DNA of 64,000 nucleotides from Candidatus Caldarchaeum subterraneum (GTDB lineage Archaea > Thermoproteota > Nitrososphaeria_A > Caldarchaeales > Caldarchaeaceae), in the NCBI GenBank assembly GCA_937934305.1, contig CALHAG010000002.1:142192-206191 (forward strand), in the 5' to 3' direction. This document shows, piece by piece, positions 1,092 to 22,537 of the stretch (the stretch's first letter is position 1; each line of letters begins with the position of its first letter). Position numbers and translations under genes: made by a program. The notes under the pieces were generated by a model. That model searched no databases. It was not told where the DNA came from and saw only the letters and a program-made list of their open reading frames with translations.

Positions 1092-1095
1092 GTCT

Positions 1096-2916
1096 CTACA
1101 CCTGGCTTGGGAACAATGTGGCTCTCACCAGCTCGGACATCAGGGGGACAGAGTAGTAGGCGGGTATGAACAGGAACGCTGTGATGGCTACTCTATGTAG
1201 GCCGAATGGATGAGAGTCTATGGCGTAGCTGATGGTCAGCGCCATCGTCGATGCCGCTATAATCATCATCAGGAAGCCCATGTCTATCATCTGGGCTGCG
1301 AGCTCGGGGCTTGGGTTGAAGCTCGGCCCTCCCTGCGGAGCCTCGGGAAGCTCAAGGTTTGTGCCGCCGAACGCTGTGCCGGCTATGAGTGGATGAACCA
1401 TGCCGAACATCATCGAGGCTATGAATGGCGTGGCGTATGTCAGGTATAGGAAGAGCTTGGTTCTACCTCTCTGGGCTTCTCTGGCGGCGCTGTAGTATGT
1501 CAACGCTGTAATAACCTTCTCCATTAGCTGGGGGCTTGCTCCCCCCAGCCTGTCCACCATGTCTATGAGCCAGAGAATCACGCGGGTGAGCCAGCTACGC
1601 GCGGTGGAGGCTGCATGGTATATTCCGAGGCCCATTGTCAGCCTTGTGGAGAACCCTTTGACGAATGCTTGGAAGTGCCGGCTGTACCGCTGTGCCGCGG
1701 CGGTCTTCAGGCTATGATACATGGTTTTCCCGGCTTTTCTCTCCTCGACCGCTATCCTCACAAACCGTTTCAGCTCCCTCTCAGCCTCTTCTATCTCACC
1801 CACCTGATGGCGCATGGATGCGTAGACAAGGAGAGCCGTGACGCCTACTCCCGCCGCTATTATGACTGGATACGGAACCGGTATACCCGCTGCCTGAACC
1901 ACATAAGCAATGGCGGCTGAAGCCGCGGCAACGGATAAAGCCTTCGCCAAGGTGGCCGTGTCTAGGGATATTCTATTAGGTATCTTCGGCATAGCGTTCC
2001 TGACTGCTAGCAGTAACACGAGGCCGAGGAACGGTGTGATGAAGGTGTTTAGAAGCACCATTCCCTGCGTGGATTCTCCGCCGACTATCACGGTGAGGCT
2101 CATCCCCAGAGGCAGTAGAACAAGTGCGGTGAAGAGGATTTCGATATAGGCGGCTATTGATGACGTGAATCTTTCAAACTTCTCTGTCATGTATTTCAGC
2201 GCCTCTTCCGCGAGGTCCTCCAGCGTAGACACCATGTCCCCGCCTGTTCTCCAGACGCTTGTCGTCGTCAGCAGCGCCCGGCTGAACTCTTCATGCGGTA
2301 TGGTTTCGGCGTGGGCTTCCACGCTCTTGACCGCCCCCACCCCTGCGAAGACCGCTTTCCGCTCAATCTCTGCAGCCTCTTTGCTGACCTGCTTAAAGAC
2401 ATCCGTCGCTTTTTTGACATGCTGCAGCGCCATGTAGATGGTGCCGCCGCAGTAGGCGACTATGCTGCTGAAAACCATGAAGAAGGGATACTCGGTGGAG
2501 AGGGCTGTCTTCCTGTTTGAGGCTGAGTTCGAGGCGGATAGCATCGTCATGAATATTGGAGCTGCCGCGGGGCCGAAGCCCGCTAAAACAAGCGGGTTAA
2601 AGGAATGTGTAAATAGCGAGATAAGCGCCACGGCCGCAATAACCAATACTGAGGCAATGGATGCGCCTATCGCCGACGATATTTTCTCCGCGAGCTCGTA
2701 GGAGGATACACGCTTCATCGAGGCCCTGGCCACTTTAACCGCGTATCCCTCAAATCTTGCCGAGAATTTTTTGCCAAGTGATGAGCCGGCGAAAGCGGCG
2801 ACAGGCGCTGTGACCGCTCCCACCATCATCGGAATATTTCCAGAAAAGACGGCTAAAGGCCCTATTATCCCGGCTGAGAGTGCTGGGATGATGGACATGA
2901 CTGTGCCGTCCTGCAT
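1096..2916 (-). CDS. Type IV pilus/archaellum-type assembly platform membrane protein (FlaJ/TadC/GspF-like, polytopic)
   Basis: 606 aa with multiple hydrophobic helices separated by charged cytoplasmic domains. Its start overlaps the stop of the upstream secretion ATPase (position 2916). Pairing a platform protein with a FlaI/PilB ATPase is the canonical type-IV-filament core. Confidence 0.6.
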   Translation of the reverse strand: MQDGTVMSIIPALSAGIIGPLAVFSGNIPMMVGAVTAPVAAFAGSSLGKKFSARFEGYAVKVARASMKRVSSYELAEKISSAIGASIASVLVIAAVALISLFTHSFNPLVLAGFGPAAAPIFMTMLSASNSASNRKTALSTEYPFFMVFSSIVAYCGGTIYMALQHVKKATDVFKQVSKEAAEIERKAVFAGVGAVKSVEAHAETIPHEEFSRALLTTTSVWRTGGDMVSTLEDLAEEALKYMTEKFERFTSSIAAYIEILFTALVLLPLGMSLTVIVGGESTQGMVLLNTFITPFLGLVLLLAVRNAMPKIPNRISLDTATLAKALSVAAASAAIAYVVQAAGIPVPYPVIIAAGVGVTALLVYASMRHQVGEIEEAERELKRFVRIAVEERKAGKTMYHSLKTAAAQRYSRHFQAFVKGFSTRLTMGLGIYHAASTARSWLTRVILWLIDMVDRLGGASPQLMEKVITALTYYSAAREAQRGRTKLFLYLTYATPFIASMMFGMVHPLIAGTAFGGTNLELPEAPQGGPSFNPSPELAAQMIDMGFLMMIIAASTMALTISYAIDSHPFGLHRVAITAFLFIPAYYSVPLMSELVRATLFPSQV

Positions 2917-4754
2917 CAGGCGACACCCGCCACTGTGTAGTAGCGCTGTTTGAGGAATTCGTGGTACTCGAGCGCGTCTGATATGTTTTTCTCGATTCCT
3001 TCGACGATTACCGCCGCCTTTCTCTCAATATCGGCTATTATCTTCTCCTCGGATGCCCCGAATCTATCGACCAGGATGTTGAGTTTAGCGCTCTTCTTGA
3101 AAGCTTCCTCGGGGCTGTCGGGTTCGAACGTGTCTGACGACTCCCTCCATCTAAACACCTGATGAATCCTGAAGCCGGTGGCTGAACTGTCTGGAACTAT
3201 CTCCGCTATCTCCATCATGCGCCTCAGCCTGCCGTTGGGTGTGTCGGTGTAGGACATTATGCCGCAGCCCCAGAAGAAGCTGAGCAGGCTCTCGCTGAGG
3301 TCGGCTTTTCTCAACATGATGGCGAGCCTGCTGAAGAAGGCTGAGGCGGAGTCGGCGTGGAACGTGAACCCTCCGCCATGGCCTGTGAAGGCGGCGTTCA
3401 ATAGATGGTATATCGCGTCCTCGCTTCTCACCTCGCCTACCACGATGTAGTCAGGCCTCATACGTAGAGCCATTTTTATCAGCTCGGCTTCTGTGACCTG
3501 CACTTCTCTAGCGGTCATCATGCTCGGCCTCTTCACGGTCATGGCTCTCCAGCCGCGGGCGGGCAGGTAGAGCTCGTACGTGTCCTCGATGGTGTAGAAC
3601 ATGCTGTTGGGGTGGAGGCATGCAAGCAATGCGTTGAAGAGGCTTGTCTTACCGCTTCCCGTGGGGCCGGCCAGCCCGACGATAGCCTTCTGCTCTAGAG
3701 CATACCATAGATAAGCAGCCATTAACGGCGATAGCACCCCGCTTTTGACCATATGTGGCAGGCTCCATGGCATGACGGCGAATTTTCTGATGGTGAATCC
3801 CGGGCCTCTAGCGGCTATGTCTCTGCCGAATATGCCTGCGAACCTGTCTCCGCTCGGTAAAGCGAAGTCGCCGTATGGCTTTGCGACTGTTAGCCCGTGC
3901 CCAACCGCGTGTGCGAGCTTGTTCATGAAGTCGTTTACTTCGTCGTCGTCTCTGAAGTAGGCGTTTGACCATAGCCAGCGGTAGTGGCTGAAGCTTCTAT
4001 GGTAGACCCCGATGTATAATCCCGGGCCTATGCAGTTGATGTCCTCGATTTCAGGGTCCTCGACCATGATGTTTAGCACACCGTATCCGAAAAGCTCTCT
4101 CGCGATGTAGTATGTGACCTTCGTCCTTGTCTCGTCGTTGTCTATCCCAAGTGTTTTGAGCGCTGAGCGTATATGGGGTTCGAGGGCTTGGCTCAGGTTT
4201 ATGCTGGCTTTCTTGACGACGACATCTGTTCTATGGCTTCTTTTTGAAAGCGTCGTGACAACGTCTTCGGGGATTTCAGCCTTCATGTAGATGTTCTCGA
4301 GGGCCATGCTGTATCCCAGTATATCCTCCGGCTCCAGCTCAGGCTCTGAGACGAAGTATCTGCCTGTCATCCCCTCGGCGGCTATCCTTATGCTGGCGAG
4401 GCCTATCCTGTAGCTCTTCAACGTGACCCCTGTCCCAGGGTCTCTTAGGACAAGCGGTATCCTGGCGGCTGAGGAGAGGAACCTCTCCAGTAGCTTGAGG
4501 CGTTCCTGAGCCTTGGCCAGTATCTTCTCCTCTTTCTTGTCGAGCTGCTTGGCTGGTAGCCTGATGACCGGTGGCGGAGCCGCGGGCTCCTTGTCCGCCT
4601 TATCCTGTTTACGTGTCTTCTTTGCCTCAGGCTCTATTGCTTCTACTGTTTTCGTTTTCAGCGACTCTCCGCAGTTGGGGCAATGTAGTAGCTGTATCCC
4701 TTCTTCCTCTATGATGGGGGGCAGTTTTTCGCCGCATGCTGGGCACTTATCCAC
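2916..4754 (-). CDS. Type II/IV secretion-family ATPase (FlaI/PilB/VirB11 family) with an N-terminal C4 zinc ribbon and a Lys/Glu-rich linker
   Basis: Walker A is GLAGPTGSGKTSLFNALL. Walker B-like is PDYIVVGEVRSEDA. The N-terminus carries CPACGEKL...CPNCGESL. The gene sits next to the platform gene and the pilin genes. Confidence 0.8.
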   Translation of the reverse strand: MDKCPACGEKLPPIIEEEGIQLLHCPNCGESLKTKTVEAIEPEAKKTRKQDKADKEPAAPPPVIRLPAKQLDKKEEKILAKAQERLKLLERFLSSAARIPLVLRDPGTGVTLKSYRIGLASIRIAAEGMTGRYFVSEPELEPEDILGYSMALENIYMKAEIPEDVVTTLSKRSHRTDVVVKKASINLSQALEPHIRSALKTLGIDNDETRTKVTYYIARELFGYGVLNIMVEDPEIEDINCIGPGLYIGVYHRSFSHYRWLWSNAYFRDDDEVNDFMNKLAHAVGHGLTVAKPYGDFALPSGDRFAGIFGRDIAARGPGFTIRKFAVMPWSLPHMVKSGVLSPLMAAYLWYALEQKAIVGLAGPTGSGKTSLFNALLACLHPNSMFYTIEDTYELYLPARGWRAMTVKRPSMMTAREVQVTEAELIKMALRMRPDYIVVGEVRSEDAIYHLLNAAFTGHGGGFTFHADSASAFFSRLAIMLRKADLSESLLSFFWGCGIMSYTDTPNGRLRRMMEIAEIVPDSSATGFRIHQVFRWRESSDTFEPDSPEEAFKKSAKLNILVDRFGASEEKIIADIERKAAVIVEGIEKNISDALEYHEFLKQRYYTVAGVA

Positions 4755-5460
4755 CCTGCTCCACCTCCCCAGCCGCTTCCTCTATCGACCAGGCCCCTCC
4801 ATATGGCACTACGCCGCTTACCTGTACGTCTTGTATGTGTCGGCCTTCTGAGTCAAGTATCTTGAATTGTAGGGTTATTTTGCCTACGTCTCTCATCCAG
4901 TTGACGAAGCTGTATAGGTCTGTGACGGGTACTATGACTGTGACGCTTGCTTCGAAGTTATTCGGCCTGATAACTATCCTGCCCTGTGAATCGGTTGGAA
5001 AACCATCCAATATCTCGGCTGACGTGGCTAGCCCAGGGGTCAGCACTATTACTTTTTCTCTAGGCGAGATGTAGCTGTTCTGTGTCCCAAGCTCTGTGAA
5101 CTTGACGATTATTGTCACGGATTTTTCGTTTGGCGGCGGGCATCCTTTAGGGATGTTGAGTGTCTCGTTTTCCTGTGGGGGCCCGCCTTTTATTCCGCAT
5201 GTATAGATGGCATAGGCGGAGAAGGGGGCTGGCTGATTGGTTTTCTGGACAGTTGTCGCCGCTATGGACACGGTTTGTGTTATGGTTTGTCCCTGGATGA
5301 CTGTTATTGTTTGAGAGGGTTTGGAGGCCGCTGGACTCGCTAGATATCCTAGGATAAATCCTGTTAGGAGGAAGACTGCTGCCGTGGCCGCCGCCGTCTT
5401 GAGATTTTTAGGACCAATACCGCCGCGGAACATGCCGCGGCTATGAAAACTATCGTCCAT
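4747..5460 (-). CDS. Membrane-anchored hypothetical protein in the pilus operon
   Basis: N-terminal hydrophobic segment KTAAATAAVFLLTGFILGYLA followed by a Thr/Gln-rich extracellular region. The ORF overlaps the upstream 914-aa gene by ~97 nt, so the true start is uncertain. Confidence 0.35.
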   Translation of the reverse strand: MDDSFHSRGMFRGGIGPKNLKTAAATAAVFLLTGFILGYLASPAASKPSQTITVIQGQTITQTVSIAATTVQKTNQPAPFSAYAIYTCGIKGGPPQENETLNIPKGCPPPNEKSVTIIVKFTELGTQNSYISPREKVIVLTPGLATSAEILDGFPTDSQGRIVIRPNNFEASVTVIVPVTDLYSFVNWMRDVGKITLQFKILDSEGRHIQDVQVSGVVPYGGAWSIEEAAGEVEQGG

Positions 5461-8108
5461 GTAGATAAAGGAATAACTATGGTTGCTTCTGTGGCGTCGG
5501 CTGCTAGGGCTGTCTCCCCTCCTCCCAATGGGCTTGAAGCCTTTATTGTTGTTTCGGTGGGGGGTGCCGCCGGCAGCTTGGCTTGGCCGTCATAGGCTGT
5601 GGTGGCCCTGATGTCGGGGTATATCCACGCCTCTGTGAAGGGCGCGGGAATGCCTAGCACGTCTACGGCCTTTATCCTCACCGTTTTCAGCCCTGTCCTG
5701 AGCCTGTATTCTCCCGGCCCCTGTATAGATACTGTCTGTTCTACGTTGACCTCTGCTTCACGGTACCTTATGGAGACGGTTCTCCATGTTCCGCTGTCTA
5801 TGTATGCCATGGGTGGGGTGTATACTCTCGTTTCCCCGCCTCCTTCGAGGACCACGTTGTCAGGCTCGGCCAGGTATCCTTCGCCAGCCTCCAAGGCCAT
5901 TGATACAAGGTACTGGGGCAGGTATTCTACGCGGATATGCATCGGCTTGCTGACCGTTATCAGCCACGACCCTGTCCTAGCCCCGTCCACGTAGACGGCT
6001 TTAAGCGCCAGCCTAGTGGCGTTCCCCAGCTCAACGGTCTCGGGAAGCCATCGCCTAACATCTATCGATGAGCCGTTCTCAACCCTCTCCTCAAAGCTCT
6101 TGACAACGCTATCTACACGTATTGTCTGGAGTATTCTCCACTCAACCTTGACAGTGGCTGGCTGTGTCAAGGTATACTTCACCATAGCCATGTTCCCCCG
6201 GCTTAGGGACTGGTTCCACGTGGCTAGGACAGCCCCGTCCTGACCATATACGGTCATGTTCCTCAGCTCCACCACTGTCCCGTTCCCGAACTCCTGAACA
6301 ATGGGCATGAGGGTGTAGAGGGTCTCATTGGCTGTGAAGTACTTCTCCTCACTCAGGATATACCTGCTCTCTATCCTCACCTTGTGCTGCCTCTCCCAGA
6401 TGGGCTTGAGGGTCAGCGGCTTGTCCACAACTATCTCGGTTCCGTTGTATCCCTCGAACCCCTTGAAAACAAGCCTTGTACCGTTTCCAAGGTCAACTAC
6501 ATCCTTCTCCGGATGTATCTGCACCGTTGAGCCCTTGTCAACCCAGACGCTCTTGAACAATCCGCTGTATAGGCCCTCAACCCTTACGAGGTACTGAGGC
6601 TTCCAAAGCCTGTCCACAAGGTTCATAGGCGATGTGACGTTCACCACAGCATCCTGCCCGCGCCAAACCATTCTCACATCCTCGGATAACTGGAAGGATT
6701 CAGCCGCCGGCGCGAGCTTCACGACACTTTTCCTCAGAGCCCATACGTGTTTGCCGTCGTGGTAAGCCCAGCCTGACACGGCTTCTACCTTGACAGGGCC
6801 AGCCTCAAGCCTATACGCCCTCTCAAACCTAAGCTCAGCCAAGAGCCTGTCCTTGAGGCTCTCGAAGCATAGGCTCTGACCATTCATGGTCAAGGCTGTG
6901 AAGTTATCCCAGCCGGGGCCTATGCCGTCGTAAATAAGTATACGGTATACATTGGATTCGTTGATGTAGGGCATGACGTACTTCAGCAGCTTTTTAGGCA
7001 CTAAGGTGTAAGTGTAGTAAGTCTGCGATGAGCCGCCTACTCTGGTGACCTCCTCGGTCAACGTAACCCTCTGAACATCGTATGAGTGGAGAACGAGCCT
7101 AGTCCCGTTACCATAGTCAGATACAAACGGGAGATTTTCGCCAGACTTATCCTTGAAAGGCTTGATACATAGCGTCTCGCGGTAAATACCTTCGGTGACG
7201 GTGATGGGTGCGATGGGATAGGATAGACTAATCCAACCCTCCCCCTCGTCAAAGACGTTGTAGTGATACACCCATACCTCACCCGGCATGCTTATAACAG
7301 TGAGGTTGCTGGGCGGGCTGAGCCAGCCGCCGCCAAACTTCAGCACATCGTCGGCGGAGGCGTTTCTTAGTGAGCTAAACCTAACAGCCAATGCGTAGAG
7401 AACAAATGTATCTGGTGGACCAAATATTGGATAAGGTCGCCAAGCGTCGCCGGGATACCAGCCGCCTATTCTGAACCCTCTCCAGTCAAAACCATATTGA
7501 TAGCTTCGTGGGTATCCATCGTTATGGCCGAGGCCTATGGCGTGGCCAAACTCATGAGATAAAAACGCAAGGTTGCCTAAAACCTTCACATATGGTTCCT
7601 CGAGAGTCGCAGAGATTGTGCAAGCACCGTTCCCGCAACGACGTGTGGGGTCTATAATTATGTCGGGTGTAGGTATTGTTTCGTTTACACCTTCTATGTA
7701 GAATTTGAACCTTATTTTTGGGAGGTGTCTAGCCCATTCATAGTGTTCTGCGGCGTATTGTAACGCGGCTTGCCACGTTCTAACCACCCTCGATGCAAAC
7801 AACACATGCTCCCAGCCATACTCTGTTTGGATGACCTTAATCCTACTATAATCAAGATACTCTATGGTGGTTCCGGGCCTGTACTTGAGCAGTATGTTGT
7901 ATGTGTATCCTCCGTCCTCCTCCACGGTCTGCCTCGGGTTCCACCACTGGTTTATGGGGAAAACCTCTATTCTCTGCGTCAGCCTATCTCCTTTGAAGTC
8001 GTTGACCCATGTCACCTCCCAGCCCGGGTACTGGAACTCTTCACCATGTATGGGCAGGAGGACAAACAGTATGCAGACGGTTGCAAGCGCTGCTAACGCA
8101 GCCCTCAT
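5364..8108 (-). CDS. Large secreted, C-terminally anchored surface protein with a metzincin-type zinc-metalloprotease motif
   Basis: N-terminal signal MRAALAALATVCILFVLLPIHG. LSHEFGHAIGLGHND matches the metzincin HExxHxxGxxH(D/N) zinc-binding consensus. The C-terminus is a hydrophobic helix followed by an RRRRPRQQ tail. Confidence 0.6.
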   Translation of the reverse strand: MRAALAALATVCILFVLLPIHGEEFQYPGWEVTWVNDFKGDRLTQRIEVFPINQWWNPRQTVEEDGGYTYNILLKYRPGTTIEYLDYSRIKVIQTEYGWEHVLFASRVVRTWQAALQYAAEHYEWARHLPKIRFKFYIEGVNETIPTPDIIIDPTRRCGNGACTISATLEEPYVKVLGNLAFLSHEFGHAIGLGHNDGYPRSYQYGFDWRGFRIGGWYPGDAWRPYPIFGPPDTFVLYALAVRFSSLRNASADDVLKFGGGWLSPPSNLTVISMPGEVWVYHYNVFDEGEGWISLSYPIAPITVTEGIYRETLCIKPFKDKSGENLPFVSDYGNGTRLVLHSYDVQRVTLTEEVTRVGGSSQTYYTYTLVPKKLLKYVMPYINESNVYRILIYDGIGPGWDNFTALTMNGQSLCFESLKDRLLAELRFERAYRLEAGPVKVEAVSGWAYHDGKHVWALRKSVVKLAPAAESFQLSEDVRMVWRGQDAVVNVTSPMNLVDRLWKPQYLVRVEGLYSGLFKSVWVDKGSTVQIHPEKDVVDLGNGTRLVFKGFEGYNGTEIVVDKPLTLKPIWERQHKVRIESRYILSEEKYFTANETLYTLMPIVQEFGNGTVVELRNMTVYGQDGAVLATWNQSLSRGNMAMVKYTLTQPATVKVEWRILQTIRVDSVVKSFEERVENGSSIDVRRWLPETVELGNATRLALKAVYVDGARTGSWLITVSKPMHIRVEYLPQYLVSMALEAGEGYLAEPDNVVLEGGGETRVYTPPMAYIDSGTWRTVSIRYREAEVNVEQTVSIQGPGEYRLRTGLKTVRIKAVDVLGIPAPFTEAWIYPDIRATTAYDGQAKLPAAPPTETTIKASSPLGGGETALAADATEATIVIPLSTWTIVFIAAACSAAVLVLKISRRRRPRQQSSS

Positions 8109-8172
8109 ACCTTGGACACATTATTCGCAGGAATATAAACGGAGAAGGCCTGAAAAAATGTATGGGTGTTTA

Positions 8173-10125: not shown

Positions 10126-10131
10126 ACACCA

Positions 10132-11988
10132 TCACCATGGAAGGCAATACACCAAATACTTGACAATGACGCCGAATCCCACACCGGAGCCGCCTCCTCC
10201 GCCAGAGCTGCCTCCACCATCTCCGCCGCTCGATCCTCCGCCAGTCACAGGTACCGTAACAGAAACAGCCGTCACATCACATGTAGGAGGGGGGTTAAAC
10301 GTGCAGCTCTGACCGGGACCGCAGGAGCTGGTCGGGCCCATGTACACCCCTGACGGAGCGGGGGGCGATGGCGTGTAGATGTTGCATTCGACCTTGTCCA
10401 CGTAGTAGTACCTGTGAATTGTGTAGCTGTTCTCGGTGACTTGGAAGTGGTTGACGTAGACCGGGTTCTCCGGGCCGACTGTATAGGTTGGCAGGGCTGA
10501 TATCCGGGCCTGCCAAGCGTACCATGCGCGGTCTCCATAGGCGGTGGTGACGGGTGCTGTTCGTGTTGTCACCACCATATTGACCGGGTGGTGGGGATTG
10601 TCTCCCGGCCTGACGAACCTCGTCCCACTGTATAGGAGGGCGGCGGTGAAGGTTCCACGGTAATAGTTGTTGAATGTGAGTGCTGGGCCTGCCGGGTACA
10701 CACGAGTCCCGTATAATGTTGTGACATATTGCCTCCCCCATTCATCCCAGTCTGTTCTCACTGCTGTTGGCCATGTATATGTGGTTGGATAATGCGTCAT
10801 GGACACGTATTCTCCCTGCCGCATGTACGTGGCCGTGGGTGTGGGGTAGTTGGGCGGGGCGGGCTGTACATCTACTCTCCGCAGACTATACACCGCTGTG
10901 CATAATGAGTTGATTGCGGCTATGTTTATCGACACGATTAGGGACCTTGGCGCGTTTATGTTGGTGTAGTAGGTGCCTCTCTCCACGTAGACGGTTTTCG
11001 TGTCATCCGATGCGTCGGCCCAGCCGCCGGCAGGCTGCCAAGCCCATAGCAGGTAGTACCACCCGTTATAACCCCACGGCGGGACCTCCCACTGGACGTT
11101 TATGGCGTTTCTCCAGTCGGGTAATGGTGCTGACGGTGAGCCGTCCTCGGGGAGTCCTGTCACCGAGGCTGAGTAGTAGATGCCTCCTCCTGCAGGCAGC
11201 CCCCTCGCCAGTATGTTGATTTTCTCGAAGTGGTTTACGGCCCGTATGGTTGAGTAGGTTATAGGCGCTGGAGGGTTGAGGGTTATGGTCCTGTTCACGT
11301 AGAAGGTGTTGTTTATAGTGGTGAAGGATGGTACCTGCCATACTTCTGTGGTTGTGTAGTTGTATGTGGTTACGGTGGTTGCGCCTACTAGGTTGTCTTC
11401 GCGCGGGTAGCCCCATGTGCTGCCGAAGCTGTTGCCGGCGTCGGTGTATGCTATCAACGCCGCCATGTTGCCTGCGAGCTGTCGGAAGCTTGTGAAGCTG
11501 AGCCCTAGCTGCTCCGGGCTAAGCGTAACCTTTGTGCCCGGCGGAACAATTATCTGCCTGCTTATCTCTATGACTTGCCTGTTTTGGCTGGGCTGCGGCC
11601 TGTACACCGCCAGTAGCTTGGTTATGTTTGTCGGGAAGCCCCATGCGTTGACTATCGTTATTCTCGGTGGGCTGTTGATGTCTGAAGAGTTTTCGGCGTG
11701 GATGTATATGCGTATAAGCTCCTGGTCCTTGGCCGCCTGCCTCCTCAGCTCCTCCATCATCTGCCTGTTCTGGGCCGAGTACGTGTTTGAGACATAGGTT
11801 GTTGCGAGCACTCCTGCTGTGACTACAGCCATCACCATTATGGCCGCTATTACGCCGGATAACCCGGATGAGCTTTTCCTTTTCAAGGCATCAGAGAGAA
11901 AAAGAGCTGATGCATATAAGGCGATAAACCTCCCCGACCAATCTTGGTCAGGGAGGGGCATACACAGCTTCAACAAAATAATGGTCAT
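10132..11988 (-). CDS. Large pilin-like protein (class III signal peptide) with a Gly/Ser-rich C-terminal tail
   Basis: N-terminus KRKSSSG|LSGVIAAIMVMAVVTAGVL matches the archaeal prepilin (PibD) cleavage pattern G|[LIV]S shared by five neighbours. 618 aa with C-terminal GGGSSGGDGGGSSGGGGGSG. Confidence 0.55.
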   Translation of the reverse strand: MTIILLKLCMPLPDQDWSGRFIALYASALFLSDALKRKSSSGLSGVIAAIMVMAVVTAGVLATTYVSNTYSAQNRQMMEELRRQAAKDQELIRIYIHAENSSDINSPPRITIVNAWGFPTNITKLLAVYRPQPSQNRQVIEISRQIIVPPGTKVTLSPEQLGLSFTSFRQLAGNMAALIAYTDAGNSFGSTWGYPREDNLVGATTVTTYNYTTTEVWQVPSFTTINNTFYVNRTITLNPPAPITYSTIRAVNHFEKINILARGLPAGGGIYYSASVTGLPEDGSPSAPLPDWRNAINVQWEVPPWGYNGWYYLLWAWQPAGGWADASDDTKTVYVERGTYYTNINAPRSLIVSINIAAINSLCTAVYSLRRVDVQPAPPNYPTPTATYMRQGEYVSMTHYPTTYTWPTAVRTDWDEWGRQYVTTLYGTRVYPAGPALTFNNYYRGTFTAALLYSGTRFVRPGDNPHHPVNMVVTTRTAPVTTAYGDRAWYAWQARISALPTYTVGPENPVYVNHFQVTENSYTIHRYYYVDKVECNIYTPSPPAPSGVYMGPTSSCGPGQSCTFNPPPTCDVTAVSVTVPVTGGGSSGGDGGGSSGGGGGSGVGFGVIVKYLVYCLPW

Positions 11989-12745
11989 CCATTAACAGGT
12001 TGAGCGGGTTTAAGCCATATGTAACCGTGTCCCTGTAGCCTGTGAAGCTCACCTCCCAGTGCTTGAAAACATACTGCGTGTTACCTATCGTTATCGCCGG
12101 CTCCGCCTCTATACGGGCTATCTCATAGGGTGAGTAGTTGCGGTTTCCGGGAGGCGGGTTAACGGCTGACGAGCATGAGCCGCACACCTGCCTGCCAGAA
12201 CCGGTTTCCAGCAAAACCCTTATGTTGACCGTGTATACACCGGGTCTTTCAGGCGGGTCGCGCCCACATGGATAAACCTCGTCAGGCTCGACCCAGCTCC
12301 TCTGATAGGCTTTACCCACTGCGCCGCTGGAGAAGTGGATGACTATGCTCGTGTTGGCGTAGCCGTTGATAGACCTCGGCAGCCCCAGCCTCTCCAGCCT
12401 GATTATCCTACAGGCTCCGGCGTCGAATACCTCGTTTATTCTAGCCGACGTGACAGAGCCCATCCGGTCAACTAGGATATCGAGCAATGTGTCGCCCTCG
12501 CCGCTGTCTTCATGGATTAGGAGATATGCTTTCGGACTCCAGCCGGGAGGTATCCCCGGCATCAATGTGGCTCTCACCTCATGCTTGCCTCTGTCATATA
12601 ATTCCTCCAAGTTTCTCCTCGCCGTGAAAGTGTTTGAGAAGGCTGAGACAGAGAGATAGGCGGCTACGGTGGTCATCATGACTATGGCGAGGGCGAAGAC
12701 TATCACAGACGCTGAGGATACTCCCCGCCTCCTCATCTTGTCCAC
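11948..12745 (-). CDS. Type IV pilin-like protein (class III signal peptide)
   Basis: MDKMRRRG|VSSASVIVFALAIVMM. 265 aa. Confidence 0.55.
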   Translation of the reverse strand: MDKMRRRGVSSASVIVFALAIVMMTTVAAYLSVSAFSNTFTARRNLEELYDRGKHEVRATLMPGIPPGWSPKAYLLIHEDSGEGDTLLDILVDRMGSVTSARINEVFDAGACRIIRLERLGLPRSINGYANTSIVIHFSSGAVGKAYQRSWVEPDEVYPCGRDPPERPGVYTVNIRVLLETGSGRQVCGSCSSAVNPPPGNRNYSPYEIARIEAEPAITIGNTQYVFKHWEVSFTGYRDTVTYGLNPLNLLMDDHYFVEAVYAPP

Positions 12746-13134
12746 TCCTTTGTCAGGACATGAAGCGCTCCGGAAGATGTTTTAACAGCTAATGCCGAGC
12801 CGCTGGGTAGGCTGAAGACCTGCATCTGTCTAGGCGCTAATGTGGCGTTCCCCGACCATGCAAGGTTGGCGTCCACATATATCTGGATAACCGTGACAGG
12901 GTCTGGGCCGTCGTTAGCTATCCATGCTCTGCCGTCGCTGGCCCAGTAGACAAGCGTGAGCCTCTCAGATATCTTGACAGCCTGGTTTCCCGACTCTTTC
13001 TCAAAACCTGCCACGGCGGCGGATGTGTTTCTAGCGTATATTCCATAGGCAGCCAGGGCCACGGCTAATGCGACCAGCAGAGCCGCCGCCGCTGCCGCTG
13101 CCTCGCTTATCCCACTGCGGCTACGGTGAACCAT
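12733..13134 (-). CDS. Type IV pilin-like protein (class III signal peptide)
   Basis: MVHRSRSG|ISEAAAAAAALLVALAVALAA. 133 aa. Confidence 0.6.
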   Translation of the reverse strand: MVHRSRSGISEAAAAAAALLVALAVALAAYGIYARNTSAAVAGFEKESGNQAVKISERLTLVYWASDGRAWIANDGPDPVTVIQIYVDANLAWSGNATLAPRQMQVFSLPSGSALAVKTSSGALHVLTKEWTR

Positions 13135-13547
13135 GCTGAAGCACCCTCCACGGTCCTAACAGTTAGATAATATTTCTCGCCGAGGGTAACCGGTGCACAG
13201 CGATACGTGAACTCAACCGATTCAGATGGCTTCACATTGGTGGAGCCTCTCACATGCGTAAGCGTGCATACAGGGTTTCCCGCTCCCTGTATAGATAGAC
13301 CGGAATAGGTAACGGGCTCGGAGCCCTTGTTCGTCACCGAGAAGGTGAGGAGATAGCTGCTCCCCAATGCTCTGACGAGCTGGGCCGAGGAGATGGATAT
13401 GCTGTATGACTTGGAATGGGGGCCTAGCCAGCCGGAGGCCAGAGAGCCCACGAGGATTACAAGCGCGACACTCACTATAGCGAGCACCGCGACGGTTGCC
13501 GCGGGTGATAAACCCGAGACAACGCGTTGAGCCAAGCACATCACCAA
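13107..13547 (-). CDS. Type IV pilin-like protein (class III signal peptide)
   Basis: QRVVSG|LSPAATVAVLAIVSVALVIL. 146 aa. Confidence 0.6.
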   Translation of the reverse strand: MVMCLAQRVVSGLSPAATVAVLAIVSVALVILVGSLASGWLGPHSKSYSISISSAQLVRALGSSYLLTFSVTNKGSEPVTYSGLSIQGAGNPVCTLTHVRGSTNVKPSESVEFTYRCAPVTLGEKYYLTVRTVEGASAWFTVAAVG

Positions 13548-13563
13548 AAAAGGTGAGGAGGTT

Positions 13564-14034
13564 TTAGGTTACTGGAACAGAGCGCTGGTGGCTTGTGCTT
13601 CCCCCCGGGATGTTGCCGCTCACCCTGATGGTCAGCATGTCGCCGCGCCCTATGCCGGACGCCGCTGCACAGCCGCTCGCCGAGCCGCTGGAGCCCGGGT
13701 TAAGAGAGGCTGGGAAACCGCTCAATGGCACCGCTACAGGAGCGGTTTGAGCGGTTATGCTGGTGACAGGGCTTCCGCCGGTGTTCTTCACCTGCACCGT
13801 TACGCAGAGCTGCTGGCTTCCCAGCGGGCCCACCAAAGCCGCAGAGACATCTTCTATGATTATGCCTTCTTTTCTAGCCCATCCGCCAAGCTGGCCTCCC
13901 ACAATGCTTCCCACAAGGAGGGCGAGCGATACACCGACTATCACGAGAATCAGCACCACAACCGTCTCGCTTAGCCCCTTGCGGCTAAGGTTCTTGGATT
14001 TTCCAAAAAAATGAAGAGGGTTTTTAGCGGCCAT
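13564..14034 (-). CDS. Type IV pilin (class III signal peptide)
   Basis: LSRKG|LSETVVVLILVIVGVSLALLVGS is a textbook archaeal prepilin N-terminus. 156 aa. Confidence 0.7.
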   Translation of the reverse strand: MAAKNPLHFFGKSKNLSRKGLSETVVVLILVIVGVSLALLVGSIVGGQLGGWARKEGIIIEDVSAALVGPLGSQQLCVTVQVKNTGGSPVTSITAQTAPVAVPLSGFPASLNPGSSGSASGCAAASGIGRGDMLTIRVSGNIPGGSTSHQRSVPVT

Positions 14035-14050
14035 GGTTTCTCATCCCCGT

Positions 14051-14500
14051 TTAGGTGTGGGCTACCCCGGTCTTGGTGTCGCTTACTGTCTGTCCGTTGG
14101 GCGCGGTGCACTGAACCCTGAAAGTGTAGACATCGCCGAGAACCGTGCCCGCTACGTTGTCCGCGGTGAATGTCTGGCTTCTGCCAGCGGCTATGTCCTG
14201 GCTAGTCGGGTCGAATATAGCGCCTGGGAGGTTGATTGCGGTTACTTGGCAACCAGTTAGAACTGAGCCTCCTGCATTGCGCACATCTACTGTGATGAAG
14301 CCGTTGCCGTTTGTGTCAACTAGGATGTCCACCTTCTCTATGCTGACTTTTGGCGCGGCACCCCATCCGAAGAGGAAGCCGCCGGCGATGCTGGCTGCTA
14401 CAAGGGCTAGGGCTACGCCGACCACTAGGAGGATTAAGGCGAGGATGGGCCCGCTGAGCGCCTTGTTGTCGGGTTTCTTCACAAGGTTTTTCACTTTCAT
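14051..14500 (-). CDS. Type IV pilin (class III signal peptide), first gene of the pilus operon
   Basis: KKPDNKA|LSGPILALILLVVGVALALVAASIAGG. 149 aa. Confidence 0.65.
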   Translation of the reverse strand: MKVKNLVKKPDNKALSGPILALILLVVGVALALVAASIAGGFLFGWGAAPKVSIEKVDILVDTNGNGFITVDVRNAGGSVLTGCQVTAINLPGAIFDPTSQDIAAGRSQTFTADNVAGTVLGDVYTFRVQCTAPNGQTVSDTKTGVAHT

Positions 14501-14584
14501 GGCGTCTAAGACAACTAATCATCATGCATTTATTTCAATAATCTGATTAGGCTGAGGAGACTTCCTGTAGGGCCTTCGGAGAGG

Positions 14585-14870
14585 GTGAAGCTCAGACAAT
14601 GTTTATCAAGCCTATACGATATGTTGTGGTTAGAGCAGGCATGTATGGCTGCCCATATATGGTCAAACCCTATTCCCAGAAAGCCGAAATTTTGGCGAAT
14701 TAGGCCCGATTATCTGGTGACCGAAAATACCCGAAAAGTATTACCGCTTTTTGACCATATATGGTCAACCTGCCTCCGTAGAAGCGGGAAATTTCCGGGA
14801 ATTAGACCCAATTTCTTCCTGACCGAAATTATTCAAATCGTCATACCGGTTATTTGATTATATGCAGAGT
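14585..14870. repeat. Two tandem copies of a composite intergenic repeat unit (palindrome TTGACCATATATGGTCAA + GAAATTTYCGGGMATTAG box + GACCGAAAATACYCGAAAAGTATTAC hairpin box)
   Basis: Perfect 18-bp palindrome at 14749-14766 and a partial one at 14654-14666. The same unit recurs at 22262-22535, 36588-36720 (inverted), 56366-56440 and 56636-56760. Confidence 0.7.
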
Positions 14871-14883
14871 TGTTTCATAATAA

Positions 14884-15405
14884 GTGGTGAAGTGTAGAGG
14901 GTGCGGGGTTAGCCTGCCCCGTGATGCGCGGTACTGTTTCAACTGCGGCTCAAGGGTGGGTAGACGTGGGATACTCGCCAAGCTTGTGCCAATTTTCCTT
15001 GTAATAGCCCTGCTCATGTTAGCCTTGGGGAGCCCGTTGACTAACGGGGGCAACGTTGTGCTGGAGAGGGTTAGGGCTGCGGGGTTCAACGCAATGGTTG
15101 AGCGCGGCGGCTACGTGGCTGTAGTCGCCGACCATACATGGTCGGTTGTTGATTTCGTATCATTGGAGAAGGTGCTTAAAGAAATAGACGCGAGGTGGGT
15201 TATTCTTAGAAACATGGTTGAGCGCGGCGATGCCGACAAGGCTCAGAAGGTGGCGGACATGGTTAACGGACTAGAGGATGTTCGGGGTGTTTACAGAGAC
15301 GGTGGGCTGGTGATGGTGACGGTTAAGACACCCTCAGCGCAGCTTCTCCACATGATTTTCAAGCTTGCGGGGCAGGATGTGGCTCTGGTCATCAGGTTCT
15401 CCTAG
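14884..15405 (+). CDS. Zinc-ribbon membrane protein, hypothetical
   Basis: N-terminal CRGCG...CFNCG zinc ribbon, then one TM helix LVPIFLVIALLMLALG, then a soluble domain. Confidence 0.4.
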   Translation: MVKCRGCGVSLPRDARYCFNCGSRVGRRGILAKLVPIFLVIALLMLALGSPLTNGGNVVLERVRAAGFNAMVERGGYVAVVADHTWSVVDFVSLEKVLKEIDARWVILRNMVERGDADKAQKVADMVNGLEDVRGVYRDGGLVMVTVKTPSAQLLHMIFKLAGQDVALVIRFS

Positions 15406-22535: not shown

Positions 22536-22537
22536 TA

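What the first reader, a model, noticed from the sequence alone, without database searches (positions are those of the whole stretch)
1096..14500. Unusually elaborate type-IV-pilus-like operon: six class-III-signal proteins, two giant secreted proteins and a metzincin
Twelve co-directional genes encode a FlaI/PilB-type ATPase, a FlaJ/TadC-type platform and five small pilins. They also encode one 618-aa class-III-signal protein, a 650-aa Cys-rich secreted protein and a 914-aa metzincin-motif protein.

All six class-III-signal proteins share the same prepilin cleavage context G|[LIV]S (RKG|LSE, NKA|LSG, VSG|LSP, RSG|ISE, RRG|VSS, SSG|LSG).

The described crenarchaeal pili (Aap, Ups) have one or two pilins and no protease. 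Here the combination of five minor pilins, two giant accessory proteins and a protease suggests a specialised adhesive or degradative filament that does not obviously match a described archaeal pilus type. No prepilin peptidase (PibD) gene is in the window.
Basis: partly seen in the sequence, partly recalled or inferred. Interest (0 to 1): 0.7.

Follow-up and report, generated by a model that had tools for sequence, protein, structure and literature searches.

The report
Caldarchaeal type IV pilus gene cluster
This is a hot-spring archaeon's operon for building an adhesive type IV pilus, with a two-gene cassette for a cell-surface zinc protease inserted into it; it is a lineage-specific variant of a known kind of machine, not a new kind.

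Summary
Twelve tightly packed minus-strand genes (1-14500) encode a FlaI/GspE-family ATPase, a TadC/FlaJ platform, three PilA-family pilins and four further pilin-like proteins. They also encode a 914-aa surface protein with an invariant HExxHxxGxxH site.

Corrections:
- g6 most likely starts at a TTG, giving 584 aa rather than 618.
- The 650-aa protein is a paralogue of g6 and a seventh pilin-like protein. Its reading frame starts at the mature +1 position, with no leader.
- The twelfth gene is cut by the window edge, so the operon continues beyond it.
- The host is a Caldarchaeum-like aigarchaeon, not a member of Thermoprotei.

The g1 model (pLDDT 89) matches solved archaeal pili best. g8 is a divergent matrixin (M10) relative that has lost the Met-turn methionine. 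It has a Sec signal and a C-terminal anchor, so it is not a filament subunit. With g9 it forms a cassette that also occurs without pilus genes next to it. In more distant relatives of the locus, a PMT glycosyltransferase sits between the pilin block and the ATPase instead.

The family is not Ups, Aap, Bas or archaellum. Complex TACK pilus loci with many minor pilins and large surface proteins are already described. Verdict: new variant of a known kind, of moderate interest.

The parts
14051..14500 (-). g1: PilA-family type IV pilin (149 aa; MKVKNLVKKPDNKA|LSGPILALILLVVGVALALVAAS...). Candidate major pilin.
   Evidence: 54 homologues with a nearly invariant N-terminal helix and two conserved Cys. 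AF2 model has pLDDT 88.8, with helix 17-43 followed by a 7-strand beta-sandwich. The top six Foldseek PDB hits are solved archaeal pili or an archaellum: 8q30 Aap, 8fk7, 6w8u, 5tfy, 6nav, 8tib. The family profile hits 8q30 at 5e-5, and that mature chain starts LSGAIVALIL, aligned to g1 L15.
13564..14034 (-). g2: pilin paralogue of g1 (156 aa; ...SRKG|LSETVVVLILVIVGV...)
   Evidence: 36% identical to g1 and in the same BLAST family (F1). Orthologues in L004-L007 keep the motif.
13107..13547 (-). g3: UpsA-like pilin (146 aa; ...RVVSG|LSPAATVAVLAIV...)
   Evidence: NCBIfam UpsA 5.9e-10, 39 bits, below the 130-bit cut-off. Belongs to family F1 with g1 and g2.
12733..13134 (-). g4: small minor-pilin-like protein (133 aa; MVHRSRSG|ISEAAAAAAALLVAL...)
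   Evidence: Class III motif conserved in L004, L005, L006 and L007. Separate family F3, present in 1-2 copies in every complete locus.
11948..12745 (-). g5: minor-pilin-like protein (265 aa; MDKMRRRG|VSSASVIVFAL...) with a C-terminal B-repeat-like motif (YVFKHWEV)
   Evidence: Motif and orthologues in L004 and L005. No Pfam hit above noise.
10132..11886 (-). g6: giant pilin-like protein. Probable TTG start at 11886 gives MKRKSSSG|LSGVIAAIMV... and 584 aa; the longest ORF, from 11988, gives 618 aa. Candidate tip adhesin.
   Evidence: The start is inferred from the L005 orthologue MNRKSIRG|LSG and from the DNA sequence. Family F2 with g7. No Pfam or PDB sequence match.
8173..10125 (-). g7: second giant pilin-like protein (650 aa), a paralogue of g6. 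The frame begins at the pilin +1 position (MNSSVSALLTVLVLLAGF) with no leader. It has a poly-Pro linker at 547 and a C-terminal domain with 7 Cys.
   Evidence: The L004 orthologue has MKGKNSLG|VSGTVSALLTV. It is in frame with g6 after a TGA and two codons, and the same GTG start is present in L005. Cys map. No PDB sequence match.
5364..8108 (-). g8: membrane-anchored surface protein (914 aa). It has a Sec signal, a divergent matrixin-like zinc-protease domain (HEFGHAIGLGH at 185-195), a roughly 600-aa stalk of repeats (GN[GA]T motifs at 333, 541, 608, 695; 15 N-glycosylation sequons) and a C-terminal TM segment with a basic tail.
   Evidence: The zinc site and the YP are invariant in the six clusters of the family. 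The family profile hits archaemetzincin 2x7m at 0.002, then ADAMs and MMPs. Relatives found by a full HMMER search score as Pfam Peptidase_M10 up to 40 bits (gathering cut-off 24) and carry InlB B-repeats. A motif series shows the Met-turn Met replaced by W/V/I/D/E. TM segments.
4747..5460 (-). g9: small N-terminally anchored protein (237 aa as the longest ORF; other gene calls give 174-228 aa). It is the partner of g8 in a two-gene cassette.
   Evidence: A homologue follows the g8 homologue in L005 and also in L010, where no ATPase follows. No Pfam or NCBIfam hit.
2916..4754 (-). g10: assembly ATPase (612 aa) with an N-terminal zinc ribbon
   Evidence: T2SSE 2e-25. NCBIfam FlaI 240 bits (cut-off 550) and BasE 201 bits (cut-off 1000). 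Best PDB matches are 2oap afGspE at 2e-52 and FlaI 4ii7 at 8e-42. ATPase motifs.
1096..2916 (-). g11: polytopic platform protein (606 aa, TadC/FlaJ/UpsF-like)
   Evidence: T2SSF 6e-6. NCBIfam UpsF 1.7e-47, 162 bits (cut-off 400), and BasF 6e-31. Eight hydrophobic segments.
1..1091 (-). g12: N-terminal 363 aa of a bitopic accessory protein (Sec signal MKQVLLFTILMFLLMFPVYA, then an InlB B-repeat ectodomain). It is cut by the window edge.
   Evidence: Translation. Pfam Flg_new_2 9e-6. Orthologues of 767-783 aa follow the platform gene in L003, L006, L007, L008 (BLAST). They have a TM segment near residue 370 and a roughly 390-aa cytoplasmic domain.
14501..14883 (.). Divergent intergenic region upstream of g1. 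It holds an AT-rich TATA-like stretch about 20-35 nt before the g1 ATG and two copies of a dispersed 60-nt repeat ending in the palindrome TTGACCATATATGGTCAA.
   Evidence: Sequence. Repeats. The repeat is absent upstream of the L005 orthologue.

Best explanation
The region is the main part of a Caldarchaeales-specific type IV filament (TFF) operon that assembles an adhesive surface pilus.

Shown:
- An intact hexameric-type secretion ATPase (g10) and a polytopic platform (g11) are encoded together with seven proteins that have pilin-type N-termini.
- g1, g2 and g3 are PilA-family pilins. g1 has the fold and the cleavage-site register of solved archaeal pilins.

Inferred mechanism:
- A PibD/FlaK-type prepilin peptidase encoded elsewhere removes the short basic leaders after G/A.
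- g10 and g11 extract the mature pilins from the membrane and polymerise g1 (perhaps with g2 and g3) into the filament through their conserved hydrophobic helices.
- g4, g5, g6 and g7 (133, 265, 584 and 650 aa) act as a minor-pilin set that primes assembly and ends up at the tip. This would present the large C-terminal domains of the paralogues g6 and g7 as adhesins. The analogy is with bacterial GspH-K and FimU/PilVWX.
- g12, and the next gene seen in relatives (about 930-1060 aa, with a cytoplasmic zinc ribbon), are bitopic membrane proteins with B-repeat ectodomains and large cytoplasmic domains. They travel with the ATPase and platform in every family member whose downstream region could be read. 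They probably form the envelope and cytoplasmic scaffold or the regulatory part of the machine.

The g8-g9 cassette:
- g8-g9 is a separable two-gene cassette inserted between the pilin block and the motor block.
- g8 is a Sec-exported, C-terminally membrane-anchored, heavily glycosylatable stalk protein. It displays a matrixin-like zinc protease domain at the cell surface.
- It is co-transcribed with the pilus but is not a filament subunit.
- The most likely role is proteolysis at the attachment site, either for peptide acquisition or for remodelling or release of surface proteins.
For: Gene content and order.

Class III motif: clustered in six consecutive genes out of 145 ORFs and conserved in orthologues.

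g1 as a pilin: 54 homologues with an invariant N-terminal helix, a pLDDT 88.8 model, top fold matches to solved archaeal T4P, and a profile match to 8q30 whose mature N-terminus aligns with the predicted cleavage site.

Synteny: the architecture is conserved across loci whose ATPases are 41-82% identical to g10. The order is F1 pilins x2-3, F3 x1-2, F9 or F11, F2 x2, a variable slot, ATPase, platform, F7, F8.

g8: invariant zinc ligands and catalytic Glu. Homology to Pfam-positive matrixins through intermediate sequences. A signal peptide and a C-terminal TM segment.

Cassette independence.

Variable slot: occupied by a PMT glycosyltransferase in L006, L007, L008 and L012.

Stand-alone prepilin peptidase in the reference Caldiarchaeum genome.
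Against: - No filament has been observed, and the organism is known only from MAGs.
- For g4-g7, pilin status rests only on the N-terminal motif, its conservation and operon position. There are no fold models and no PDB or Pfam matches.
- Three leaders (g3, g4, g6) have Ser at position -2 rather than the K/R/D/E of a strict FlaFind-type rule.
- g7 has no leader at all.
- The g8 protease domain could not be modelled (pLDDT 34).
- g8 itself scores below Pfam thresholds and lacks the Met-turn methionine, so activity is inferred from ligand conservation only.
- The prepilin peptidase and the 3' end of the operon are outside the window, and the source contig could not be retrieved.
Confidence: 0.7

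Rival explanations
1. It is a bindosome-like or T2SS-like pseudopilus. The machinery builds only a short membrane-proximal structure. Its job would be to display or release the large class-III-signal proteins (g5-g7), and possibly to organise g8 and g12 in the envelope, rather than to make a long adhesive pilus.
For: Weak NCBIfam similarity of g1 to BasC (9e-4), g4 to BasA (0.02), the ATPase to BasE (3e-59) and the platform to BasF (6e-31). There are many cargo-sized proteins with class III signals. The 2026 survey by Sivabalasarma and Albers argues that TFF bases are widely used to display class-III-signal proteins.
Against: All Bas scores are far below their cut-offs, and FlaI and UpsF score higher than BasE and BasF. 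No substrate-binding-protein domain or ABC transporter is present in the operon. g1 has the sequence conservation pattern and fold of filament-forming major pilins.
Confidence: 0.12
2. The metzincin g8 would be functionally integrated with the pilus, either carried on or at the filament or acting as a dedicated pilin or adhesin maturation or release protease.
For: g8-g9 lies inside the operon between the pilin and motor blocks in three lineages: the window, L005 and L004. In other family members the same slot holds a pilin-modifying type of enzyme, a PMT glycosyltransferase. Surface peptidases linked to archaeal T4P loci have been noted before and proposed to process pilins.
Against: g8 has a Sec signal and a C-terminal TM anchor, not a class III signal. 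The g8-g9 pair occurs with no ATPase or platform gene after it in L010 (its upstream side is cut by the contig end), and a distant relative sits among housekeeping genes in L009. The L004 copy is split into three ORFs while the rest of that locus is intact.
Confidence: 0.12
3. It is a Ups-like DNA-exchange pilus. The pilus would mediate species-specific cell aggregation that feeds a Ced/Ted-like DNA import or conjugation apparatus.
For: The best named NCBIfam matches for the pilin g3 and the platform g11 are UpsA and UpsF. The same window carries HerA/VirB4-like ATPases, a 1365-aa 8-TM protein, ParB, a helicase and RecA/KaiC-like genes at 36-56 kb.
Against: The Ups matches are well below equivalog cut-offs. 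No UpsX-like gene was recognised, and Ups has two pilins and a simple locus. The conjugation-like module is more than 20 kb away, separated by a low-GC restriction-modification island. It is not seen next to the related loci.
Confidence: 0.05
4. It is an archaellum, that is, a motility filament.
For: The ATPase's best NCBIfam hit is FlaI (6e-71), and many database homologues are auto-named 'flagellar protein FlaI'.
Against: The score of 240 bits is far below the FlaI cut-off of 550. No hit to FlaH, FlaG/F, FlaX, FlaC/D/E or an archaellin family was found. The reference Caldiarchaeum genome has a separate canonical archaellum locus.
Confidence: 0.01

Closest known systems
Complex T4P loci of Thermoproteales (Makarova subclades 4B, 4E, 4G; PMC4858521)
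   Same: Many predicted minor pilins besides PilA-family major pilins. One large signal-peptide protein interpreted as an adhesin or minor pilin. One large protein with a C-terminal TM anchor, described as S-layer-like. Conserved cysteines. Extra membrane proteins.
   Different: The hallmark MinD/FleN ATPase of 4G was not found in the operon. The host is Caldarchaeales. The C-terminally anchored protein carries a matrixin-like domain. The family-specific bitopic proteins F7 and F8 and the CetZ-like neighbour are not part of those descriptions. The ATPase was not placed on the reference tree here.
Ups pilus of Sulfolobales (subsystem 4I)
   Same: Best named matches: g3 to UpsA (5.9e-10) and g11 to UpsF (1.7e-47). 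The order pilins, then ATPase, then platform is shared.
   Different: Scores are far below equivalog cut-offs (39 vs 130 bits; 162 vs 400 bits). Ups has two pilins plus UpsX, whereas this locus has seven pilin-like proteins, a protease cassette and bitopic accessory proteins.
Aap pilus of Sulfolobus acidocaldarius (PDB 8q30)
   Same: The g1 model and the g1 family profile match the Aap filament subunit best (Foldseek 9.8e-6; hmmsearch 5e-5). The mature N-terminus is in the same register, LSGAIVALIL versus LSGPILALIL.
   Different: 26% identity and low TM-scores (0.41), because the helix-to-head angle differs. No AapX-like Fe-S protein was recognised in the operon.
Subsystem 4F (mainly Halobacteria; Makarova 2016; Sivabalasarma and Albers 2026 preprint)
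   Same: The ATPase has an extra N-terminal Cys-rich or zinc-ribbon domain. The locus co-localises with a tubulin-family CetZ-like gene, seen here in relatives L003, L006 and L012.
   Different: 4F pilins are of euryarchaeal type, and the lineage is different. The tubulin gene lies outside this window and could not be checked for this genome.
Bacterial T4P/T2SS minor-pilin tip complexes (GspH-I-J-K; FimU-PilV-W-X with PilY1)
   Same: A fixed-order set of four or five pilin-like proteins of increasing size sits next to the major pilin genes, with the largest plausibly at the tip. This is an analogy from established knowledge.
   Different: No sequence homology was detected. Archaeal machines lack a secretin and PilMNOP. 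The roles of g4-g7 are inferred, not shown.
Matrixin family (MEROPS M10; MMPs, karilysin) and archaemetzincin
   Same: HExxHxxGxxH with the catalytic Glu. Relatives of g8 reach the Pfam Peptidase_M10 gathering score and have a canonical (L/V)MYP Met-turn followed by a PSTLDxYAL helix. Profile hits to 2x7m, ADAMs, MMPs and karilysin.
   Different: In the g8 clade the Met is replaced by W/V/I/D/E, and a DWRGW-containing insertion precedes the turn. g8 itself has no significant Pfam hit. The domain sits on a roughly 600-aa B-repeat stalk with a C-terminal membrane anchor.

Membership tests
Archaeal type IV filament (TFF/T4P) systems | VirB11/GspE-family secretion ATPase with intact nucleotide-binding motifs | tested here: met
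   T2SSE 2e-25. PDB 2oap 2e-52 and FlaI 4ii7 8e-42. Walker A GPTGSGKT, Asp box and His box present.
Archaeal type IV filament (TFF/T4P) systems | Polytopic TadC/FlaJ-type platform protein encoded next to the ATPase | tested here: met
   T2SSF 6e-6, NCBIfam UpsF 1.7e-47, eight hydrophobic segments. The gene overlaps the ATPase stop by 1 nt.
Archaeal type IV filament (TFF/T4P) systems | [quoted passage not shown] | tested here: met
   g1 model has pLDDT 88.8, with the best fold hits to solved archaeal pili. The profile match to 8q30 is in cleavage-site register. The motif is conserved in g1-g6 and their orthologues.
Archaeal type IV filament (TFF/T4P) systems | Class III signal (prepilin) peptidase, family A24 | not testable with these tools
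   No A24 hit in 45 window ORFs scanned with Pfam. The source contig could not be retrieved. The reference Caldiarchaeum genome has a stand-alone FlaK/PulO gene.
Ups pilus (UpsX-E-F-A-B) | Equivalog-level UpsA/UpsB pilins and UpsF platform | tested here: not met
   UpsA 39.4 bits against a cut-off of 130. UpsF 162 bits against a cut-off of 400.
Bindosome assembly system (BasABC-E-F) | Equivalog-level BasA/B/C, BasE and BasF | tested here: not met
   BasC 19 bits (cut-off 260), BasA 15 bits (cut-off 230), BasE 201 bits (cut-off 1000), BasF 108 bits (cut-off 1300).
Archaellum | FlaI equivalog together with FlaH, FlaG/F and archaellins | tested here: not met
   FlaI 240 bits against a cut-off of 550. 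No FlaH, FlaG, FlaF or FlaB hits among the operon proteins.
Aap pilus | AapA/B pilins with AapX (Fe-S domain protein), AapE and AapF | tested here: inconclusive
   The g1 fold and profile are closest to the Aap filament 8q30. No Fe-S or AapX-like domain was found in the operon. No Aap-specific HMMs were available.
Makarova subclade 4G systems | Dedicated MinD/FleN-family ATPase (arCOG05608) and the diverged ATPase arCOG05609 | tested here: not met
   No ParA/MinD-type domain in any of the twelve operon proteins. arCOG assignment as such was not tested.
Metzincins / matrixin family M10 | Extended zinc-binding motif HExxHxxGxxH with catalytic Glu | tested here: met
   HEFGHAIGLGH at 185-195. H185, E186, H189, G192 and H195 are invariant in the six clusters of the family.
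Metzincins / matrixin family M10 | Conserved Met-turn methionine beneath the zinc site | tested here: not met
   The aligned position is W in g8 and V/D/I/E in its close relatives. Only the following YP is kept. Distant relatives have (L/V)MYP.
Metzincins / matrixin family M10 | Significant match to the family profile | tested here: inconclusive
   g8 alone gives only Peptidase_M57 at 0.07. Homologues P0126, P0202, P0201 and P0210 reach Peptidase_M10 at 30-40 bits (cut-off 24). The g8 family profile hits archaemetzincin at 0.002.
Metzincins / matrixin family M10 | Metzincin catalytic-domain fold | tested here: inconclusive
   The AF2 model from six sequences has pLDDT 34. The order of secondary-structure elements (long helix, strands, HExxH helix, C-terminal helix) is compatible but not reliable. 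No fold search was run on this model.

The most novel reading that the evidence does not exclude
The locus may represent an undescribed Caldarchaeales-specific TFF subsystem.

Its defining parts would be two bitopic proteins with large cytoplasmic domains (F7 = g12, and F8 with a zinc ribbon), a 4-TM protein, and a CetZ/FtsZ-like tubulin gene directly downstream. In one relative a small Arf/Ras-like GTPase takes that position instead. This would couple pilus assembly or positioning to a cytoskeletal or GTPase module.

In the window's subclade this machine would also have recruited a surface matrixin cassette and evolved a leaderless 'pre-cleaved' giant pilin (g7). Together these would give an attach-and-digest appendage.
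Probability: 0.15. Interest if true: 0.7.

Novelty: new variant of a known kind. Interest (0 to 1): 0.4.

Why it matters
Aigarchaeota (Caldarchaeales) are uncultivated hot-spring archaea, and nothing is known experimentally about their cell surface.

This locus family is absent from the reference Caldiarchaeum genome, and no section of the two archaeal T4P surveys that was read here describes a locus of this kind. It offers:
- a defined candidate major pilin;
- an ordered minor-pilin set with two giant paralogues;
- conserved bitopic accessory proteins.

It also shows how a variable slot between the pilin and motor blocks is filled by different surface-modifying modules, a matrixin cassette here and a PMT glycosyltransferase elsewhere.

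It gives testable candidates for adhesion and extracellular proteolysis in these organisms. It is also a natural case of a metzincin that has lost the Met-turn methionine. It does not change the general picture of archaeal type IV filaments.

Tried and rejected
1. Structure of the g8 protease domain. AF2 on a 6-sequence alignment gave pLDDT 34, so no fold search was run on it. Homology was argued from sequence instead.
2. Retrieving the source contig and the operon's 3' end. Exact-protein look-ups for g10 and g11 returned only a 5-kb Logan contig. The genome-contig scan returned one 3.8-kb contig. The downstream part was therefore inferred from L003, whose ATPase is 80% identical.
3. The bacterial sigma-70 and terminator scan is at background level and irrelevant for an archaeon.
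4. PDB sequence searches for g6 and g7 gave only Gly-rich noise or nothing.
5. The divergent 173-aa zinc-ribbon gene (14884-15405) was considered as a conserved regulator. L005 has a 173-aa gene in the same position, but tblastn finds no similarity. Rejected.
6. The palindromic 60-nt repeats upstream of g1 were considered as a conserved operator. They are absent from L005 and from the 10 loci fetched by then (L001-L010), so this is a genome-specific dispersed repeat.
7. The archaellum reading was rejected on gene content.
8. Placing the ATPase in Makarova's subclades was not possible, because no reference sequences were available in the tools. Only NCBIfam and PDB proxies were used.
9. A strict FlaFind-like rule ([KRDE] at position -2) fails for g3, g4 and g6. 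These were kept as class III candidates because the orthologues have R/K/G/A there and the rest of the motif is conserved.

Full report
**What is there**

Positions 1-14500 hold twelve minus-strand genes. Neighbouring genes overlap, or are separated by at most 64 nt. In transcription order they are:

| Gene | Coordinates | Size |
|---|---|---|
| g1 | 14051-14500 | 149 aa |
| g2 | 13564-14034 | 156 aa |
| g3 | 13107-13547 | 146 aa |
| g4 | 12733-13134 | 133 aa |
| g5 | 11948-12745 | 265 aa |
| g6 | 10132-11988 | 618 aa as the longest ORF |
| g7 | 8173-10125 | 650 aa |
| g8 | 5364-8108 | 914 aa |
| g9 | 4747-5460 | 237 aa |
| g10 | 2916-4754 | 612 aa |
| g11 | 1096-2916 | 606 aa |
| g12 | 1-1091 | at least 363 aa; runs off the window |

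The window contains no tRNA gene and no Rfam match.

**Host**

The closest named ATPase homologues (80% and 70% identity) come from 'Candidatus Caldarchaeum sp.' MAGs. Proteins at least 90% identical to g8 (same cluster) are deposited as Ca. Caldarchaeum sp. / Caldiarchaeum subterraneum proteins. The organism is therefore an aigarchaeon (Caldarchaeales), not a member of Thermoprotei.

**Motor**

- g10 is a T2SSE-family ATPase (2e-25). It scores 240 bits on NCBIfam FlaI (cut-off 550) and 201 bits on BasE (cut-off 1000).
- Its best solved relatives are Archaeoglobus GspE 2oap (2e-52) and FlaI (8e-42).
- Walker A, Asp box and His box are present, and an N-terminal CxxC...CxxC zinc ribbon precedes the core.
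- g11 is a polytopic T2SSF protein. It is closest to UpsF (1.7e-47, 162 bits, cut-off 400).

**Pilins**

I searched for a basic stretch, then [GA]|[LIV]S, then 18 hydrophobic residues. This is found in 7 of 145 ORFs of at least 80 aa in the window. Six hits are g1-g6, and the seventh is an antisense ORF inside g6. The motif is retained in the orthologues of related loci.

g1, g2 and g3 form one BLAST family. g3 matches NCBIfam UpsA at 5.9e-10.

g1 has 54 homologues. They share a nearly invariant N-terminal segment ([KR][AG]|LS.PILALIL.VVGVALALVAAS.AGGFLFGWG) and two conserved cysteines.

- Its AF2 model has pLDDT 88.8, with a helix at 17-43 and a seven-strand sandwich.
- The six best PDB matches are the S. 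acidocaldarius Aap filament, the P. calidifontis and P. arsenaticum pili, the M. hungatei archaellin and two S. islandicus pili.
- The family profile also hits 8q30 by sequence (5e-5). The mature chain of that structure starts at LSGAIVALIL, aligned with g1 L15, which is exactly the predicted cleavage site.

1. g1 has Ala at position -1.
2. g6 most likely starts at the TTG at 11886, just after the g5 stop. This gives MKRKSSSG|LSG and 584 aa, like the L005 orthologue MNRKSIRG|LSG.
3. g7 is a paralogue of g6 (family F2). Its L004 orthologue has a normal leader (MKGKNSLG|VSGTVSALLTV). In the window and in L005, the frame begins with GTG at the position equivalent to +1 (MNS[ST]VSALLTV), two codons after the in-frame g6 stop.

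There are therefore seven pilin-like proteins, one of them leaderless. Only the C-terminal 95 residues of g7, behind a poly-Pro linker, are Cys-rich.

**Conserved architecture**

Contexts of ATPase homologues at 82, 80, 67, 59, 55, 43 and 41% identity were fetched. The encoded proteins of the first loci fetched (L003-L008) were clustered; L011 and L012 were compared by gene order, size and Pfam hits.

The family order is: F1 pilins x2-3, F3 (g4 type) x1-2, F9 or F11, F2 (g6/g7 type) x2, a variable slot, ATPase, platform, F7 (g12 type, 767-783 aa), F8 (about 870-1100 aa).

- F7 has a Sec signal and an InlB B-repeat ectodomain (Pfam Flg_new_2). It has a TM segment near residue 370 and a roughly 390-aa cytoplasmic domain.
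- F8 is also bitopic, with a long cytoplasmic part that contains a zinc ribbon.
- A 4-TM protein of 190-205 aa (F10) is present in L003, L007 and L008.
- A tubulin/FtsZ-family gene follows F8, directly or after one or two genes, in L003, L006 and L012. Its best PDB match is 3zid, deposited as a tubulin/FtsZ-family GTPase (which I recall to be the Methanosaeta CetZ), at 2e-13.
- In L011 a small Arf/Ras-like GTPase lies a few genes downstream instead, and the pilin block is elsewhere.

The window therefore ends inside the operon. By analogy with L003, the rest of g12, F8, F10 and possibly the CetZ-like gene lie beyond position 1.

**The metzincin**

g8 has a Sec-type signal, HEFGHAIGLGH at 185-195, and a long repeat region with four GN[GA]T-containing modules and 15 N-glycosylation sequons. 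It ends in a C-terminal TM segment with an Arg-rich tail.

The word-indexed search found only six clusters. All keep H, E, H, G, H and a downstream YP. The most distant member (23% identity) is a Pfam Peptidase_M10 hit with a canonical LMYP Met-turn.

A full HMMER profile search found 1084 proteins. Most match the stalk repeats. A subset matches the N-terminal domain as well. Of the ten relatives scanned, seven reach the Peptidase_M10 gathering score (up to 40 bits, cut-off 24), and four also carry InlB B-repeats at E below 0.01.

The motif series shows canonical relatives with HExGHxLGLxH...(L/V)MYP...PSTLDxYAL. The g8 clade instead has HExGHAxGLGH...DWRGW.GG[WVIDE]YP...PPDTFVLYAL. The Met-turn methionine is lost and a segment is inserted, while the zinc ligands and the catalytic Glu are invariant.

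The g8 family profile hits archaemetzincin 2x7m (0.002), then ADAMs, MMPs and karilysin. The AF2 model of residues 1-330 was unusable (pLDDT 34).

My conclusion is that g8 is a divergent matrixin-type protease. It is probably active, and it is displayed on a stalk at the cell surface.

**Is the protease part of the pilus?**

g8-g9 lies between the pilin and motor blocks in the window, in L005 and in L004, where the copy is split into three ORFs. Three observations argue against integration with the pilus:

- In L010 a g8 homologue (35%) followed by a g9 homologue (33%) is followed by unrelated genes, with no ATPase.
- The distant relative P0126 sits among housekeeping genes.
- In L006, L007, L008 and L012 the same slot holds a PMT-family glycosyltransferase.

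g8-g9 is therefore a separable cassette recruited into a variable slot. g8 lacks a class III signal. The idea of a 'degradative filament' is not supported. Co-expression of a surface protease with an adhesive pilus is the conservative reading.

**Comparison with what is known**

Makarova, Koonin and Albers 2016 (PMC4858521) describe Thermoproteales loci with several minor pilins, a large signal-peptide adhesin or minor pilin, a C-terminally anchored S-layer-like protein, conserved cysteines and extra membrane proteins. They note additional S-layer or adhesin components in thaumarchaeal loci. They also describe surface transglutaminase-like peptidases linked to T4P loci, which they suggest may process pilins.

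Their table for Ca. Caldiarchaeum subterraneum lists only a stand-alone FlaK/PulO peptidase, a simple clade-4 locus (ATPase, zinc-ribbon protein, TadC, one pilin) and an archaellum locus. In their tree file the clade-4 ATPase pairs with a Metallosphaera sequence on long branches, with weak support (0.200). The family found here was therefore not in that census.

The 2026 preprint of Sivabalasarma and Albers keeps the same twelve subsystems. It stresses subsystem-specific N-terminal domains of the ATPases and reports 4F loci next to CetZ2. It does not mention Caldarchaeales or a protease.

Membership of Ups, Bas, the archaellum and 4G was tested and not met. Membership of Aap is inconclusive. 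Details are in the membership table.

**Verdict**

This is a lineage-specific variant of the known complex TACK type IV pilus loci, with three notable features:

- seven pilin-like proteins, including two giant paralogues, one of them leaderless;
- conserved bitopic accessory proteins, with a CetZ-like neighbour in relatives;
- an inserted matrixin-like surface protease cassette.

Interest is moderate.

Noticed in passing
window 14647-14707(-), 14751-14810(-), 22266-22322(-), 22378-22436(-), 36658-36717(+), 56640-56695(-): A dispersed intergenic repeat of about 60 nt, with consensus GGGCCTAATTCCCCAAAATTTCGGCTTTCTGCGGAGGCGGGTTGACCATATATGGTCAACC. It ends in the perfect palindrome TTGACCATATATGGTCAA. 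The 13-mer core has 14 matches with at most 1 mismatch, against 0.05 expected. Two copies lie upstream of g1. It is absent from the 10 related loci fetched by then (L001-L010). It could be a REP/MITE-like element, a regulon operator or a small hairpin RNA.
   Followed up: partly
window 36713-55811 (minus strand): A module that looks like an integrated conjugative element or a Ced/Ted-type DNA-transfer system. It contains an MCM/AAA protein, two KaiC/RecA-like proteins, a ParB_N protein, a DEAD/Hel308-like helicase and two HerA/DUF87/TrwB/FtsK-like ATPases (721 and 931 aa). It also holds a 1365-aa protein with 8 hydrophobic segments and a 280-aa protein with 7, both without Pfam hits.
   Followed up: no
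window 17036-29959: A low-GC island (0.45-0.50, against 0.52-0.57 for most of the rest of the window). It carries a 1048-aa type IIG-like N6_Mtase/Eco57I/MmeI enzyme (17036-20182) and a GmrSD_N protein (28328-29959). A similar Eco57I-type gene also lies upstream of the pilus locus in L012.
   Followed up: no
L003 10155-11174; L006 21163-21992; L012 18539-19504: A short (about 320-340 aa) tubulin/FtsZ-family gene follows the F8 gene of the pilus locus in three lineages. Its best PDB match is 3zid, deposited as a tubulin/FtsZ-family GTPase (which I recall to be CetZ), at 2e-13. NCBIfam ftsZ scores only 37-49 bits against a cut-off of 295. In L011 a small Arf/Ras-like GTPase (21389-21752) lies a few genes downstream instead. 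This suggests a cytoskeletal or GTPase partner of this pilus family.
   Followed up: partly
L006 8669-9985; L007 7227-8540; L008 5986-7299; L012 8680-9990: In more distant members of the locus family, a PMT/PMT_2 (dolichyl-phosphate-mannose-type) glycosyltransferase sits just upstream of the ATPase, or a few genes upstream in L007 and L008. That is the slot occupied by the g8-g9 protease cassette in the window. It may be a pilin-glycosylating enzyme.
   Followed up: no
window 16230-16763(-); L006 495-1508; L012 1484-2461: A Peptidase_M50 (site-2-protease-like) membrane protein lies a few genes upstream of the pilin block in three lineages. The window copy is short (177 aa, HELGH motif, Pfam E=5e-4). 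This could be plain genome synteny or a functional link. A second, full-length M50 gene is at 34580-35710.
   Followed up: no
window 10123-10134; L005 4960-4990: g7 and its L005 orthologue start with GTG at the residue equivalent to the mature +1 position of the L004 orthologue. This is two codons after the in-frame stop of g6, and it makes g7 a leaderless, 'pre-cleaved' pilin-like protein. Stop-codon read-through or a g6-g7 fusion was not examined.
   Followed up: partly
L004 6639-9005: In the 67%-identity relative, the g8 orthologue is split into three consecutive ORFs (590, 167 and 44 aa), while the surrounding pilus genes are intact. This points either to a decaying protease gene or to assembly errors.
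   Followed up: no
window 21092-27114 (minus strand): Another set of surface-protein genes: an 833-aa protein with CarboxypepD_reg, Big_3_5 and Y_Y_Y domains (24613-27114), a 692-aa protein without Pfam hits (22538-24616) and a CHRD-domain protein (21092-21679). Two copies of the 60-nt repeat lie between the last two genes.
   Followed up: no
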